The notes beneath the pieces were generated by a model, which saw only the letters and a list, made by a program, of their open reading frames with translations, did not search any database and was not told the origin of the DNA. 64,000 nt of DNA from Mobula hypostoma (Eukaryota): the NCBI RefSeq assembly GCF_963921235.1, contig NC_086097.1, positions 14,198,001-14,262,000 of the forward strand, in the 5' to 3' direction. Positions 1,010 through 30,157 of this stretch are shown in pieces. Both the position numbers and the translations under genes were made by a program. Each line of letters begins with the position of its first letter. Within the stretch, counting starts at the first letter, position 1.

Positions 1010-3244
1010 GTCCAGACTTAGTTGTGCTAGGTCAATTGACCTAGTGAACAACCCACCTTTGCAACATAGGAGAAAAAGCAGAGTCCAAGCTAAACCCATA
1101 TGGTCACTGGGAGAACATGAAGATATCTATTCTGTTCATGGAGTTGTGGTTCCTCTTCTGAGCTCCATTCAGATCCAGGCAAAGAATTGCTTGAGATTCC
1201 TCAATCCATATCAAGCTGGGTTCTCAGCCACTTGATATCTCTTCTGGAGGTACTATTATTTCCTTGGTTAACCTCTTCCACCCTGCCTTAAGCTTCTCGT
1301 TGAGAGGCACTGGAACATGATCTTGTTGGATGTAGTCCAAGGCTACGTGGTCTGTGAGCAATTTTGCCTTCCAGTTTCCCTGTTCTGTAAAAGAACATCT
1401 GTACCTGCATCTGTCAGTAGTATGGTTGATGTGAATGCTTGTTTTGAAATGGACTTCGTGATCCCGTCATGATGTGTCCTTACCAGTCCCATCTGTTTTG
1501 CTGTACTACTTCCAAGGAAGGATATGACACCTTTCTACTATGATAAAATCTGAATTATCACTCTACTGATGCTTCAAGGTTCCTACCTTCTGAGAAGACC
1601 ACCAAGTGTGGTCTTATTGTTTGTCACTAGGACTTGACCCATTACATTTATCTGTGCAATCTCAAGGTTAATATCTTGCACTGGAGGGCCATTACACCTT
1701 GCTCCTGACTGAGTTTGAAATGTTATGGTTGACTTTGTAACGGTATTATGGTGGAGATAGATGTGACAAGTAGTCCTGGCACAATTGGCCTTGGTTATTC
1801 TTAGATACTTTTAGATACAACTGGTGCTCTGAAGCTGGCTCTGTCTCTGTCAGTCCTGCTTGACACATTTGCACTCTCCATGCACTTTAAACTTCCTTTT
1901 TGGAATTAGAATCAGAATCTGGTTTATTATCACTGTTTTATAGGCTGTTTTGCGGCAGCAGGCTATTTACAGCAAATACCGTATTTAGTATGTCCCAAAA
2001 TCTCAAGGAAATTTCTATAGCTGTGCATTCTTCCTGGTGGGGAAGTGTTGATTCTTTAGGACTGAAAGAGGCTACAAATGGTGGTAGTCTCAGCCTGTCC
2101 CAATCGTAAGTCGTGCAAAAATAGTAGTGAGGTGGTGTTCATGGATTCAATGCCCATTCAAGTACAGGAGCCTGGAGACCAGCACTGATTGTTTTAGGAA
2201 CACCTTCCTCCTCTCTGCAGTCATATTTCTGAATGGTTCATTAACTACCAGCATTAGCTTGCTATTTTTTTCATTTGCACTATTTATTTATTTGCAGTTA
2301 TAGTATTTTTTTAAGTCTTGCACTGTAATGCTGTCACAAAGCTAGAATTTCACAACATATGCCAGGGATAATAAACCTGATTCCGATTCTGAGATTTTCC
2401 TGGAGCACCTTTCTCACAACATGGAGCATTTTCTCTCAGCTTTTCACCTTGTCGCTCACAGTACTTGCAACTTCTGCCTCACCACCACATTCACTTCCTA
2501 ATGTTGGCCATCTGACATTTCTAGTCTGGCTTTGCATATGTTCAAATCTGCATATCTCTACCTACTTACACGGTGTCTGCTCGCTTAGGCTAGACTCCCA
2601 GATTTCACAAACAATCTGAGCAAATCCTTCAGCTCTGTGACAATACATTTGTGAAGACTGCTGAGAGGATCAATTAGGGTCTCTCTTCCACCCATCTGAG
2701 ATACTTACCAGGAGCGCGTGTTCACAGGGCCTTTAGCATTGTCAATGATCCCTCCCACCTGTCCAGCAAGCTCTGTGACCCCCTGTCATCAGGCAGGGTG
2801 TACCATAGCATGAGGACAAGGACTGTCTGGATGGGAGATTGTCGCAGGCAGCTGCGGAGGTCAGGTCACTGGGTGCATTTAAAGTGGAGGTTGATAGATT
2901 CTTGATAAGTCAGGGCATGAAAAGTCACACAGAGAAGCCAGGTGAATGGGGTTGAGAGGGAAATGGATCAGCTATGATCAAATGGAGGAGCAGACTTGAT
3001 GGGCTGAATGGCCTAGTTCTGCTCCTATGTCTTATGGTCCTACAGGTGTAGCTTCTTCCCCTTGGGCTGTGAAACTACGGAACATCCTGCCATCACCCTG
3101 ATCTCAGCACGTAAGAAGCGCCAGTAGTATTATTCTGATTACTTTTAACTTCTGACATAAATGCAGCTTACTATTTGTTAAGCAACACACATCAAAGTTG
3201 CTGGTTAACGCAGCAGGTCAAGCAGCATCTCTAGGAAGAGGTAC

Positions 3245-3280
3245 AGTCGACGTTTCGGGCCGAGACCCTTCGTCAGAACT
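3245..3280 (-). ncRNA. Minimal type I hammerhead ribozyme motif
   Basis: The minus strand reads AGTT-CTGACGA-A-GGGTC-TC-GGCCC-GAAA-CGTC-GACT. This gives the core CUGANGA/GAAA/GUC, stem I, stem II and a palindromic ACGT stem III. Confidence 0.8.
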
Positions 3281-24930: not shown

Positions 24931-26684
24931 TAAGCCAATAATGCCGATAGCTAAGCTTTACCAGCTGTTAAAGGCTGTCAGAACTCTTCACAATCAGGAT
25001 CTCTTCATCATTCTGTAGGATGCCCAGCCATCATTCAGAACACATGGCTGGAGTCAGAGTGCATCTAAACCAGTTAAACTGGTGTGGTGATTCAAAGCAG
25101 GTAGTACGATCAGTACCCATTAGCCGATTCAATTGTCAGCTGAATGCCCTGTTTCAAACACCACTTTAATCGCCCCTAGATCAATGCAAAAGGAATTACT
25201 TTAAAAGTCCTTCTACTCCATCGTGTTTCCATATGATTATGCTATAATTTGAAGATCACACAAGTAGCAGGATTACTTGGTATTCACAAAAAAATCAATG
25301 TCATGGGAGCACTGCTGCCAACAAAGCAGTCAGACTCATTAACATTCAATATAATGATGGACAAATCATGCTGTTGTGATTTTTAGGTTCATTTATTTTG
25401 AAAAGATTCAACATTAGAGTGATTATAAAAATATGTCCATATAAAGATCTATATAAGTATGTGTAAAATATGGATTAATTTCAATATTTCTTCTTGTGAA
25501 AAATATCACAGTCTAGACAAAGGATATTACAATCTAAAAGTAGGTTAATTGGTCATTACAAATAGTCCTGTAATTAGGCTGGAGATAAATAGGTGGGTTG
25601 ATCAGCGGCATGGTTTGTTGGGCCAGAGGGGCTTATTCCATACTGTATAAAAAATAAATAATATAACCCAGTAGGACTGTGGTTAAGACACCAGACTAGT
25701 AATCCCGATGTACAGTTGAATGATCAGCTTCCACCATGGTAACCAAGGAATTTATCTTCAGGGTATTCAATGATGGGTAACATTTAACTACCTGAAATTT
25801 GTAGGCACCCATATGGTTTTCTGACCTCCATTAGAGAAGCTAAGCTTGATAATTTGGCAAATTGGTGTATTATTGTCATGTGTACTGAGGTACAGTGAAA
25901 AGCTTTGCCTTGCGTACCAACCATACAGGTCAATTAATTACAACATTTCATTGAGGCAGTGAAAGGGAAAACAATTTCAGAGAACACAGTAAGGTGTTAC
26001 AGTTACAGAGAAAGTGCAACGCAGGCAGACAATGAAGGGCAAGGTCATCATGATTGTGAGGTCAATGGTCCATCTTAATGTATTAGGAAACCATACAATC
26101 GTCTTATAACAGCAGGATCAAAGCTGTCCTTAAGCTTGGTGGCACATGCTTTCAGACTTCTGTATCTTCTGCCCGATGGAGAGGGGAGAAAAGAGAATGC
26201 CCAGGGTGGTTGAAGTCTTCCTTGGGTGTTTTACTGAGGCAGTGAGAAGTGTAGATAAAGTCCACAGAGGGGAGACTGTGGAGGGGAGACTAAGGGCATC
26301 AATAAAACTCAATAAGGATCAAAGCAAAATGCCAAATTTCTTTAGGTAAAGATGCTGGTGAGCTTTCTTAGCCATATGTTTAGATCAGGATATACTTAGT
26401 CATAACTAAGTGCAACTCCATTTGCATAACAATATGGTAGCCATTGAAGTGACACAGTGATCCCTGCAGTTCAAGAGTAATTAGAGGGGATCAATTTTTA
26501 AATTCAAGGTGTGTGGTGCTGGCAAAGCCTGCATTTATTGGGCATCTCTAATTGCCCCTGTGTGTCGATTATTAATTAGGTATTATTACTGGTTTGCTAT
26601 GCCTGCTCAGAAGGCAGGAAGGAGTTAGCATCCACAGTGCTGTGGCCCTGGTTATGTCTGTGCCAGACCAGTAAGAATGGCAGA

Positions 26685-26835
26685 AACAAGAGACTGCAAA
26701 TGCTGGAATCTGGAGCAACAAACAATCTGCTGGAGGAACACGGGACTGATGCAGGGTTTCAGCCCAAAACACCAACCATTCCTGTCCTCCTCTAGACCAT
26801 GCTGAGATCCTCCAGCAGACTATTTGTTGTTCCAG
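26685..26835 (-). mobile_element. Degenerate Penelope pLTR fold-back
   Basis: Arms GGAGCAACAAACAATCTGCTGGAGGA / TCCTCCAGCAGACTATTTGTTGTTCC surround CTGATGCAGGGTTTCAGCCCAAAAC. Confidence 0.6.
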
Positions 26836-27202
26836 TAAGGATGGCAGTTTTCCAGCACTGAAGAACATTAATGACCATTAATGTTTTTAGAACAATCTGC
26901 AGGTATCATGCTCATATTTCTTCCTAGGAACTTATTACTCCATATTATGTAATAAAACAATTGGACCAGAGGGGACACCTTTACCCGCCCCACCTTTGAA
27001 CTGTTCCCATAACCTGCGGACTCACTTTCAAGGACTTTTCATCTCATGTCCTTGATACGTATTGCTAATGAAGTGATCCTAATGAAATTCAAACTTGAAA
27101 TGTATGTCAGCATTCTATAAAGTTCACTTCTTATGTTCTCCTACCCCAGATGCCAACGTTGCATTATATGATACAGAACGTTCACGATTCTCTTCAGTTC
27201 CT

Positions 27203-27530
27203 TACATACTTACTTACTGCCTGTACACCACTGGCATTTAGGGCAGTGATGAAGGTCTTCTGTCTCTGTCTATATAGAAGGATTCTTCAATGGTGTTTCT
27301 GCAACAATTTTTTTTGACTAATCAGGGTTGTTAGCCCTCAGTTGGACCCCTGAACCTGGAGGACTGGTGGACCACCCTTAGTCTGGCCTTCACCCTTTGA
27401 CCTGTCTGGCATGGGTGACCCAACCAAGAGCAAGAGCGTAAAGACCTGACTCCACCCGACACAGCTCTCTGGGTCATCGAGGCACACAACCTCCCAAACT
27501 ACGGCAAAGCTGTGATCCCTCTTCGAGGTC
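27203..27530 (-). mobile_element. Bipartite non-autonomous RTE element (BovB/Expander-like head plus RTE-type 3' end, (TAAG)n tail)
   Basis: The head GGATCACAGCTTTGCCGTAG...GGGTCACCCATG...AGACTAAGGGTGGTCC resembles RTE 5' UTRs. The TSD is AGTTCCT / AGCTCCT. Confidence 0.75.
27369..27530 (-). ncRNA. Candidate HDV-like self-cleaving ribozyme
   Basis: P1 GACCTC/GAGGTT (G1.U), P2 GGATCAC/GTGGTCC, P3 GCT/AGT, L3 TTGCCGT and J4/2 CTAA, with a long P4 insert. Folded by eye. Confidence 0.6.
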
Positions 27531-28872
27531 AGCTCCTGAGAGCATTACTTCATCAGCTTCCTGCCTTGAGCTGGAGGAGGAACAGGATGAACTGACGAAA
27601 CTAGGGAGAATCGGGAGCAAGGAGATGAGAATAGCTTATTGAGATCTGCCTATGAATATGCAATTAATAACGGCAGATTCATAAAATGATGTTGCCAGTC
27701 CATATTCACTTAATGCAGTCACATCATATTTCACCAAATAATTTTCTTTTCTTGAATAAATCTATATTCCTCTTCCTCTACCATCTCCTGTCCAGTTCTT
27801 GAATTCTTCACTAATGTGGGAATATGAGCAGTAATTGTAGCTCTTCCAGTGTTCTTCATTCATGCGGCAGGTACCCAGACAATGACAATGAAGTTAGTGC
27901 AGTGCATGGCAAGGATGGACAAACAGCCAGCAAATGATTGCCATGATTCTTGTAATCTACATAACAGCCTTGAGGTGCCAACAGATGATACCTTCCTGGT
28001 TCTGACACACCCACCTGTGCCTCATGTTCTTCGCAGTTAACAAAATTCTACCCATCTCCTGTTTAAAATTACCTGGCATCAGTCACATACGTGCATTCCA
28101 AGTGACTGCCTCCCTTCAGCATGGAATAAAAAAGTTAGCAGCTCGTAAACGCCACAAACATTGAATGATTTCTGAATGTTTAATTCAAAGTCCAACACAG
28201 AGTGCATCATAACATATCCCCTTATGCTTTCAAATTTGTAATGAAATGCAGTTTCTCTGAGGTCTTAATAATGATCTTGTTATTTGAAAGAATATGATTT
28301 TGCCCAATAGAAATGAAAAGCTTGCAAGCCAAGAATTGATAATGAATATTGTGCCTGTGGGTGGGATTTCAGCAGATTTCTTGCACTCGTGAAAAATCAC
28401 ATCAAAGAAAAAGCTAGTTCCAGTTTCAAACTTGCGTTGCTTTTTCTGTCTTTTCCATAAAAGATAGACAGAAGCCAGTACAATATAATAAAGAATTACT
28501 TCCTGCACTTAAAACCGGAGAGAAATCTGTGAGATGGAACAGTTACCAATGGTTACAACATTTCAAATGACATATAATTTGCACATCATTTTCAGCAGTC
28601 ATACCTGCTCAAGTTCCAGTGATCTGTCAGCAGCGGGATGAATGAAGACGATGTGCTTTCTGTCGCTCTTGCAGAAAGAGCTTGTAGCCTAGCTTGTGGT
28701 ACCATTAGAACGAGCGAACAAAAGAAACAGAAGCTGAAGCTGGCCGTTCTGCTTTCCCCTGCCTTCTCCAGCATTCAATAAGATTAAACTTGATCTTTGT
28801 ACTACTTCCCTGCACTCACGACGTATTCCTTCATCTCCTTAATGTCGAAAAAAAATTCTCTCCCTCTCAAGA

Positions 28873-29798: not shown

Positions 29799-30157
29799 TG
29801 AAGACGAAGACGCCTGTGCGTGTATTTGTTTAACATGTACTTAATGTTGCACTCCAAGAAGCACACAATTCTTCACAAATCAACCAACTGATTCTTATGG
29901 CATGGAAACCACGATGATTGGAGCTGATGGATTTGTTGCAGCTTCACCCGCCTTCACAGCCGTTGAGTTCGAAGTAACTTCGTCCGCCTGTTCCACCGTT
30001 GAGGTCTTGGTTGGATTGTTCTTTGTCAGGGACCTCACCCTTGACCTTACCGCCATGGGTGACCCTACCAGGAGCATAGCTCCAGACGGCATCGCTCTCA
30101 GGATCACAGGACCACACAAGCTTCTCCACCACGACAAGGTGACAATCCATGGAGAAG
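29799..30157 (-). mobile_element. Short RTE (Expander/Rex3-like head) non-autonomous element
   Basis: The head reads CACCTTGTCGTGGTGGAG...CCTGGTAGGGTCACCCATGGC...GACAAAGAAC. It has a (GTCTTC) tail. The TSD is ACACTCCAG / ACACTTCAG (29790-29798, 30158-30166). Confidence 0.75.
30013..30157 (-). ncRNA. Candidate HDV-like self-cleaving ribozyme
   Basis: P1 CTTCTCC/GGAGAAG, P2 GGATTGT/ACAATCC, P3 ACC/GGT, L3 TTGTCGT and J4/2 CAAA. Folded by eye. Confidence 0.6.

What the first reader, a model, noticed from the sequence alone, without database searches (positions are those of the whole stretch)
27369..27530. HDV-like ribozyme fold at the exact 5' end of an RTE-derived short element
Seen in sequence (minus strand): the order is G1-ACCTC (27530-27525), P2 GGATCAC (27518-27512), P3 GCT, L3 TTGCCGT, P3' AGT, P1' ...GAGGTT (closing a G.U pair at position 1), a long P4 insert, then C-T-A-A-G-G (C at 27381) and P2' GTGGTCC (27375-27369). 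This is the strand order of the HDV double pseudoknot. The TSD (AGTTCCT/AGCTCCT) puts the element's 5' end within ~2 nt of the predicted cleavage site. Established: HDV-like ribozymes process the 5' ends of R2 and some RTE retrotransposons. Inference: this ~330-bp non-autonomous element may need no promoter of its own and could be cut out of read-through transcripts by self-cleavage.
Basis: partly seen in the sequence, partly recalled or inferred. Interest (0 to 1): 0.75.

Follow-up and report, generated by a model that had tools for sequence, protein, structure and literature searches.

The report
Delta-type ribozyme heads cut-down RTE element
This is a worn copy of a short jumping element cut down from a longer RTE-type retrotransposon, and its family begins with a conserved hepatitis-delta-type RNA fold that likely cut the element's RNA free at its first base; the trick is known, and this copy has probably lost it.

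Summary
The element runs 27528→27203 (326 bp, minus strand). It joins the first ~245 and last ~70 bases of a decayed 3.2–3.3-kb RTE-type LINE of the same genome, one of several deletion classes. In the family, position 1 is C in 71 of 82 copies, and the duplication abuts it in 30 of 42. The helices P1 (7 bp), P2 (7 bp) and the single pair P1.1 show compensatory changes across 11 elements from several families and organisms (13 of 18 pairs; 0 of 27 control hits pass). This is a C1–G build like the trypanosome L1Tc ribozyme. This copy has a damaged P1 and P1.1 and is probably inactive; an element of another family at 30157 has an intact core. Cleavage and lack of a promoter are untested. HDV-like ribozymes on RTE elements and bipartite non-autonomous RTEs are published. 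The scan has noted similar elements before on other DNA (62 notes).

The parts
27203..27528 (-). Bipartite non-autonomous RTE-type element, 326 bp
   Evidence: Matches parent LINE L179 positions 1-244 (77%) and 3185-3252 (86%); 79-85% to other genomic copies
27529..27537 (-).
   Evidence: sequence
27194..27202 (-). 3' target-site duplication AGGAACTGA
   Evidence: sequence
27522..27528 (-). P1 5' strand (CCTCGAA; family CCTCCAA); C27528 is position 1, the predicted cleavage site
27512..27518 (-). P2 5' strand GGATCAC
27498..27510 (-). P3 / L3 / P3' (GCT, TTGCCGT, AGT; family ACC, TTGTCGT with or without a 2-nt insert, GGT); G27505 is the P1.1 base
27488..27497 (-). P1 3' strand (damaged, TTGGGAGG) and J1/4 (TT; family CT, giving the single P1.1 pair)
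27382..27487 (-). Long P4 domain (~105 nt) with covarying stems and a tandem GA/GA, kink-turn-like motif near its base (predicted)
27376..27381 (-). J4/2 with the predicted catalytic C27381 (CTAAGG; family CTAAGA)
   Evidence: C in 70 of 82 family copies and in 11 of 11 aligned elements
27369..27375 (-). P2 3' strand GTGGTCC
27278..27368 (-). Remainder of the parent LINE's 5' UTR, up to the internal-deletion junction at about 27278-27273
27203..27273 (-). 3' end of the parent LINE: last codons of the RT ORF and TAAG-type tail

Best explanation
This is a decayed copy of a short element made of the 5' and 3' ends of an RTE-type LINE, and its family's first 160 bases form a conserved HDV-type double pseudoknot that likely cut the RNA just before C1, freeing it from longer transcripts so that the parent LINE's enzymes could likely copy it into new sites. 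Shown: two-part anatomy, parent LINE, target-site duplication abutting C1, and covariation in P1, P2, P1.1 and P4. Inferred: self-cleavage using C27381 as catalytic base, release from host read-through or upstream-initiated transcripts, and trans-mobilisation through the shared 3' tail. This particular copy has most likely lost activity.
For: Full-length 3.2-3.3-kb copies with the same 5' end, endonuclease- and RT-like segments and the same tail exist (L171, L177, L179). RVT_1 E=1.8e-5 and DUF6451 E=0.003 on L180, both below the curated cut-off. Position +1 is C in 71 of 82 copies; -1 is G in only 6 of 82. TSDs were found in 42 of 74 distinct two-ended copies, against 0-4 in 20 flank swaps; 30 of the 42 abut C1 with no extra base. 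On a sequence-only MAFFT alignment of 11 elements, 88.8% of cells pair (shuffled 74.2%, 0/500; slid registers 39-56%) and 13 of 18 pairs change on both sides, including P1.1 G-C 6 / A-U 3. A P1+P2 descriptor passes 6 of 8 metagenome loci and 12 of 30 further own-genome loci, but 0 of 27 prokaryote/viral-collection hits with the same core pattern and 5 of 13,000 upstream shuffles. Precedent: L1TcRz cleaves at C1 with a single-pair P1.1, also in non-autonomous NARTc (PMC3185411); R2 SIDEs keep active ribozymes (PMC3414825).
Against: No cleavage was measured. No Rfam HDV family matches. Within the family the core is no better conserved than the rest (majority frequency 0.870 vs 0.867), and only 16 of 82 copies keep an intact core: this is neutral decay after insertion, and the covariation comes from between families. 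P3, L3 and the last GG of P1' were fixed by the search pattern in 9 of the 11 aligned rows, and segment ends were picked by a C-N-A-A motif, so their conservation is partly selected. The commonest family form has a 9-nt L3 (37 of 56 scorable short copies; 6 of 6 scorable LINE copies), longer than the usual loop. J1/2 is only 2 nt, and 1-nt spacers were nearly inactive in drz-Agam-2 (PMC4908430). An internal promoter would also give a sharp 5' end. RTE-clade placement rests on motifs and anatomy; no tree was built.
Confidence: 0.85

Rival explanations
1. One reading: the ribozyme starts at G27530 with a G·U first pair, and this copy can still self-cleave.
For: The 6-bp GACCTC/GAGGTT helix plus P3 scores -5.2 kcal/mol against -1.4 for the family register in this copy. 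P2 and C27381 are intact.
Against: G27530 and A27529 lie in the TSD. G is at -2 in 17 of 82 and at -1 in 6 of 82 copies. The helix uses up J1/4, so P1.1 cannot form; such P1 extension by flank bases was proposed to lower L1TcRz cleavage (PMC3185411). An intact copy scores -10.5 kcal/mol (L011).
Confidence: 0.07
2. The ribozyme cleaves, but the same 5' region is also an internal Pol II promoter, as in L1Tc Pr77, so the element does not depend on read-through. This is compatible with the best explanation and rivals only the 'no promoter' step.
For: Pr77 is both promoter and ribozyme (PMC3185411 passages). Kojima 2018 holds that bipartite LINEs are very likely Pol II transcribed and that LINE 5' ends drive transcription.
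Against: A review states that RTE and baggins elements with HDV-like ribozymes carry no promoter (PMC6765202). No tRNA head and no B box, which excludes only a Pol III type-2 promoter.
Confidence: 0.35
3. The pseudoknot is conserved for a non-catalytic role (5'-end protection, binding of the RT or a host protein), and the 5' end is set by other means.
For: A large conserved P4 with a kink-turn-like motif suggests protein binding. A review describes HDV folds giving cap-like protection in R2 templates (PMC13708176).
Against: The J4/2 C-N-A-A is kept in all 11 aligned elements, 113-116 nt from P3 in the passing metagenome loci, and TSDs abut or lie within about 1-2 nt of the first P1 pair in families E and F as well.
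Confidence: 0.08

Closest known systems
L1TcRz / NARTc and SIDER ribozymes of trypanosomatids (PMC3185411: passages and section 12 read; PMC4035085: passages read)
   Same: HDV-like fold at base 1 of a dispersed LINE and of its non-autonomous derivative; first base is C; single-pair P1.1; TSD next to the cut site.
   Different: Ingi/L1Tc clade, 77 nt with a short P4, shown to cleave and to act as a promoter. Here RTE-type, 160 nt with a ~105-nt P4, untested.
HDV-like ribozymes of RTE retrotransposons (Ruminski et al. 2011; paper not held, known only through PMC6765202 passages and PMC5786205)
   Same: Same clade, same 5'-terminal position, same proposed release from co-transcripts.
   Different: I could not see their sequences, so I cannot say whether this C1-G, long-P4 build is among them.
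Bipartite non-autonomous RTE elements such as RTE-N2_Lch, RTESINE1/2, WALLSI3, Bov-A (Kojima 2018, PMC5786205: parts 1-4 of 5 read, supplement not read)
   Same: 5' end plus ~70-bp 3' end of an RTE (RTE-N2_Lch is 214+70 bp; here ~245+70). The paper links the retained 5' end to a ribozyme.
   Different: No structure or covariation is given in the text read; sequence identity to those Repbase entries was not tested.
R2 SIDEs of Drosophila (PMC3414825: passages read)
   Same: Ribozyme plus 3' end, no Pol III head, ribozyme-dependent release.
   Different: Site-specific in 28S rDNA, low copy number, cleavage shown. Here dispersed, with over 4,000 first-look candidates.
Twister variants of Perere-3, an RTE of Schistosoma mansoni (PMC8501958: passages read)
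   Same: Self-cleaving ribozyme at an RTE 5' end next to the TSD; GTAA-type tail.
   Different: Different ribozyme class, and there the TSD supplies part of P1. Here P1 lies wholly inside the element.

Membership tests
HDV-like ribozyme | Nested double pseudoknot P1, P2, P3, P1.1, P4 in HDV strand order | tested here: met
   Family level. In this copy P1 and P1.1 are damaged.
HDV-like ribozyme | P1 of 6-7 bp whose first base is the cleavage site (PMC4908430) | tested here: met
   7-bp P1; the element's 5' end coincides with its first base in 30 of 42 TSD-bearing copies. An indirect mark of the site.
HDV-like ribozyme | Catalytic C in J4/2 followed by N-A-A | tested here: met
   C27381; 70 of 82 copies; 11 of 11 aligned (segment ends were chosen by this motif, and L228, which lacks it, was left out).
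HDV-like ribozyme | G1·U or G1-C first pair and C-G P1.1 of the viral/CPEB3 type (recalled) | tested here: not met
   First pair C-G 9, U·G 2; P1.1 G-C 6, A-U 3. C1 is tolerated in L1TcRz, so this marks the subtype and does not exclude membership.
HDV-like ribozyme | Match to a curated Rfam HDV-type model | tested here: not met
   No ribozyme hit at E<=10 in 26500-28500; only this damaged copy was scanned.
HDV-like ribozyme | Mg2+-dependent self-cleavage | not testable with these tools
   Needs a bench assay.
Bipartite non-autonomous RTE (SIDE-type) | 5' and 3' ends of one LINE joined, no ORF | tested here: met
   Parent 1-244 + 3185-3252.
Bipartite non-autonomous RTE (SIDE-type) | Amplified as a unit with TSDs and a microsatellite tail | tested here: met
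   About 20 of 72 mapped junctions share this copy's class; TSDs of 7-15 bp.
Bipartite non-autonomous RTE (SIDE-type) | Parent belongs to the RTE clade by RT phylogeny | tested here: inconclusive
   RVT_1 and DUF6451 hits below cut-off; 68-69% DNA match to other DUF6451 LINEs; no tree.
Pol III SINE | tRNA/5S/7SL head with A and B boxes | tested here: not met
   No tRNA, no B box; the head is the LINE's own 5' end.

The most novel reading that the evidence does not exclude
One undescribed HDV-like subtype (C1-G first pair, purine-first single P1.1 pair, 2-3-nt J1/2, ~100-nt P4 with a kink-turn) heads a broad group of animal RTE elements, is missed by Rfam, and has seeded at least four short ribozyme-headed element families in this one genome, making promoter-independent, ribozyme-processed retroposons an abundant repeat class in a vertebrate.
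Probability: 0.4. Interest if true: 0.6.

Novelty: new member of a known kind. Interest (0 to 1): 0.36.

Why it matters
It supports Kojima's suggestion that RTE LINEs spawn short derivatives because a 5' ribozyme gives their RNA a finished end. It supplies natural intact copies and a corrected cut site for a cheap assay. If the subtype is absent from Ruminski 2011, it defines an Rfam-missed ribozyme build relevant to repeat annotation and to RTE-based gene-writing templates. For this locus itself the likely consequence is nil: a decayed repeat.

Tried and rejected
Rfam scan: no ribozyme family, four chance hits. Single-sequence folding does not recover the pseudoknot. The DUF6451 search found other RTE-like families but not the parent among 30 loci; the parent came from a tail pattern. 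Viral contigs: 0 hits with the long pattern and 2 chance hits with the short one. Prokaryote genomes: 25 hits, 24 taken as chance and one (L204) a homolog on a 596-bp contig. Empty-site search: the upstream flank is single-copy, so there is no paralogous empty site. RNA: no RNA holder listed; four runs of guessed type, held as contigs, cover only the repeat (27195-27536) and say nothing on expression or 5' ends. Selection on the core among copies: none seen. Left out of alignment A1: L188 and L190 (near-duplicates), L191 and L230 (no recognisable P1/P2 5' strands), L228 (lacks the J4/2 C). Ruminski 2011 is not held. Literature searches: HDV-like+BovB+RTE 0 papers; k-turn+HDV-like ribozyme 3 papers held, 2 listed, the one opened irrelevant; kink-turn+HDV+ribozyme+retrotransposon 0; HDV-like ribozymes+RTE+vertebrate 2 reviews; the shark/SINE search listed nothing on ribozymes (listing only). 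The library lacks most subscription papers and Repbase, and no supplements were read, so absence from print is not shown. R-scape was not available.

Full report
Observation. On its own the stretch folds differently (z -1.9) and hits no Rfam ribozyme, so the single copy proves little.

Family. The 356-bp query has 4,228 first-look candidates in the 3.5-Gb genome; the 40 scored are 79-85% alike apart from the copy itself. Aligned copies share sequence from CCTCCAA onward and nothing upstream. Of 104 loci examined, 95 copies had a 5'-part hit; one duplicate was dropped, and 82 of 94 reach the 5' end. These sets were picked by similarity, so this is no estimate of truncation. Base +1 is C in 71, T in 8 and G in 3; base -1 is G in 6 and base -2 is G in 17. 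TSDs were called in 44 of 76 rows, 42 of 74 after removing two duplicate rows, against 0-4 in 20 flank swaps; 30 of the 42 abut C1. For the window copy the TSD is AGGAGCTGA/AGGAACTGA, which takes in G27530 and A27529.

Origin. A 25-nt tail pattern has 271 exact matches and the reversed control 0. Among 30 of them, some run upstream into an RT C-terminus. Following these gave copies of 3.2-3.3 kb that start with the same 5' end and end with the same tail (L171, L177, L179; L176 and L180 are longer, apparently through insertions). All 14 parent loci examined are broken, with a longest stop-free stretch of 316 aa. RVT_1 and DUF6451 hit weakly; RTE placement is inferred from motifs, a short tail region and a TAAG-type repeat like Perere-3's GTAA. 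The window copy equals parent 1-244 plus 3185-3252. Among 90 loci, 72 junctions fall into three main classes (5' part ending near 244, 263 and 350) plus several singletons, so short forms arose more than once. Copies differ from the majority by 10.9% on average (3-25%; this copy 14.5%), and core and non-core positions decay alike: an old family, probably inactive.

Is the fold real? A core pattern found 8 metagenome loci, one more homolog on a short contig (L204) and 84 own-genome matches, most from other families. L186, L187 and L191 run on into endonuclease-like frames. Eleven elements were aligned by sequence alone. With P1 7 bp, P2 7 bp, P3 3 bp and one P1.1 pair, 88.8% of cells pair (shuffles 74.2%, 0/500; slid registers 39-56%), and 13 of 18 pairs change on both sides: 5 of 7 in P1, 6 of 7 in P2, and P1.1 as G-C or A-U. 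RNAalifold independently recovers P1 and covarying P4 stems, though not P3. A descriptor with equal freedom passes 6 of 8 metagenome loci (5 distinct), 12 of 30 own-genome loci (one from the finding's own family, one with P2 at a wrong distance), 0 of 27 prokaryote/viral-collection hits (L204 also fails, at 6/7) and 5 of 13,000 shuffles. Caveats: P3, L3 and the last GG of P1' were in the pattern; P1 5', both P2 strands and the P1.1 partner were not. The rows are related, and no phylogeny-aware test was run.

Build. Position 1 pairs C-G (9) or U·G (2). P1.1 is one pair with the purine in L3, reversed from the viral C-G (recalled). J1/2 is 2-3 nt. J4/2 is C-[T/A/G]-A-A. P4 is about 100 nt. A tandem GA/GA sits near its base in all 11; it is a clean kink-turn pattern (3-nt bulge, at least 3/4 and 3/3 flanking pairs) in 5 of 11 and imperfect in the finding's family. 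One GA was in the pattern for 5 rows; I took this lead from note e1-9584598. In the finding's family L3 is dimorphic: a 2-nt insert in 37, a 1-nt insert in 2 and none in 17 of 56 scorable short copies (89 loci examined), and a 2-nt insert in 6 of 6 scorable LINE copies.

This copy. P1 has a mismatch and a bulge (P1+P3 -1.4 kcal/mol against -10.5 in L011). The P1.1 C is lost, and flank bases A and G can pair with J1/4, an extension proposed to impair L1TcRz. Only 16 of 82 copies keep a full core, and this is not one. It is probably dead. A family-E element at 30157→~29806 in the same window has a 7/7 Watson-Crick P1, 7/7 P2, P3, G-C P1.1 and C30025 and is the better test substrate.

Mechanism. 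Shown: anatomy, parent, 5' end at the first P1 pair, covariation. Inferred (0.85): the ancestral RNA self-cleaved before C1, and the parent's endonuclease/RT recognised the tail and inserted it by target-primed reverse transcription. Whether transcription came only from read-through is open (about even). There is no Pol III head, a review calls such RTEs promoter-less, but L1Tc's ribozyme doubles as a promoter. RNA runs gave no usable information.

Comparison. HDV-like ribozymes at RTE 5' ends are published (Ruminski 2011, seen only through PMC6765202 and PMC5786205). So are bipartite RTEs with the same layout and the suggested ribozyme link (PMC5786205), active ribozymes in R2 SIDEs and C1-type ribozymes in L1Tc/NARTc/SIDER. 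It works like these and meets every membership feature testable here except the viral-type G1 and P1.1 identities and an Rfam match. My searches found no paper on this exact build, but the key paper and Repbase were out of reach. The scan's own index holds 62 similar notes from at least 12 genomes (none by sequence); these are unchecked and are not support.

Verdict. Real feature, corrected register, new member of a known kind, possibly an undescribed subtype; interest 0.36.

Noticed in passing
window 30157-~29806 (-): Second ribozyme-headed short element (family E, 93% to L219) with an intact core: P1 30157-30151/30127-30121, P2 30148-30142/30019-30013, P1.1 G30135-C30120, C30025; its 3' end appears missing.
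   Followed up: partly
L219-L248: At least three other short families with the same ribozyme build: E (~430 bp, GAC-type tail, no parent among 50 DUF6451 loci), F (~260-290 bp, tail 91-92% to LINEs L080/L085) and G (L224, one copy seen).
   Followed up: partly
L121:360-3413 (-), G000:C36: A different RTE-like LINE with an intact 1018-aa ORF. Its 5' end has a hairpin followed by C-T-A-A but no recognisable P1/P3 core, so it may be 5'-truncated or use another fold.
   Followed up: no
L184, L185/L188, L189/L190: Metagenome contigs with short ribozyme-headed elements from other organisms, apparently also two-part with microsatellite tails.
   Followed up: partly
L204: An RTE-type ribozyme 5' end on a 596-bp contig filed in a bacterial MAG; likely eukaryotic contamination.
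   Followed up: no
L001-L120: Base -1 is T in 43 of 82 copies; target preference or untemplated addition was not resolved.
   Followed up: partly
L239: One copy of the finding's family has a double change in P1 pair 7 (A-U to C-G); it was picked by a pattern that required the G.
   Followed up: no
window 1-64000: Repeat-dense window with many interspersed families and no long ORF (max 271 aa stop to stop). The repeats look like those of cartilaginous fishes (recalled, not tested).
   Followed up: no
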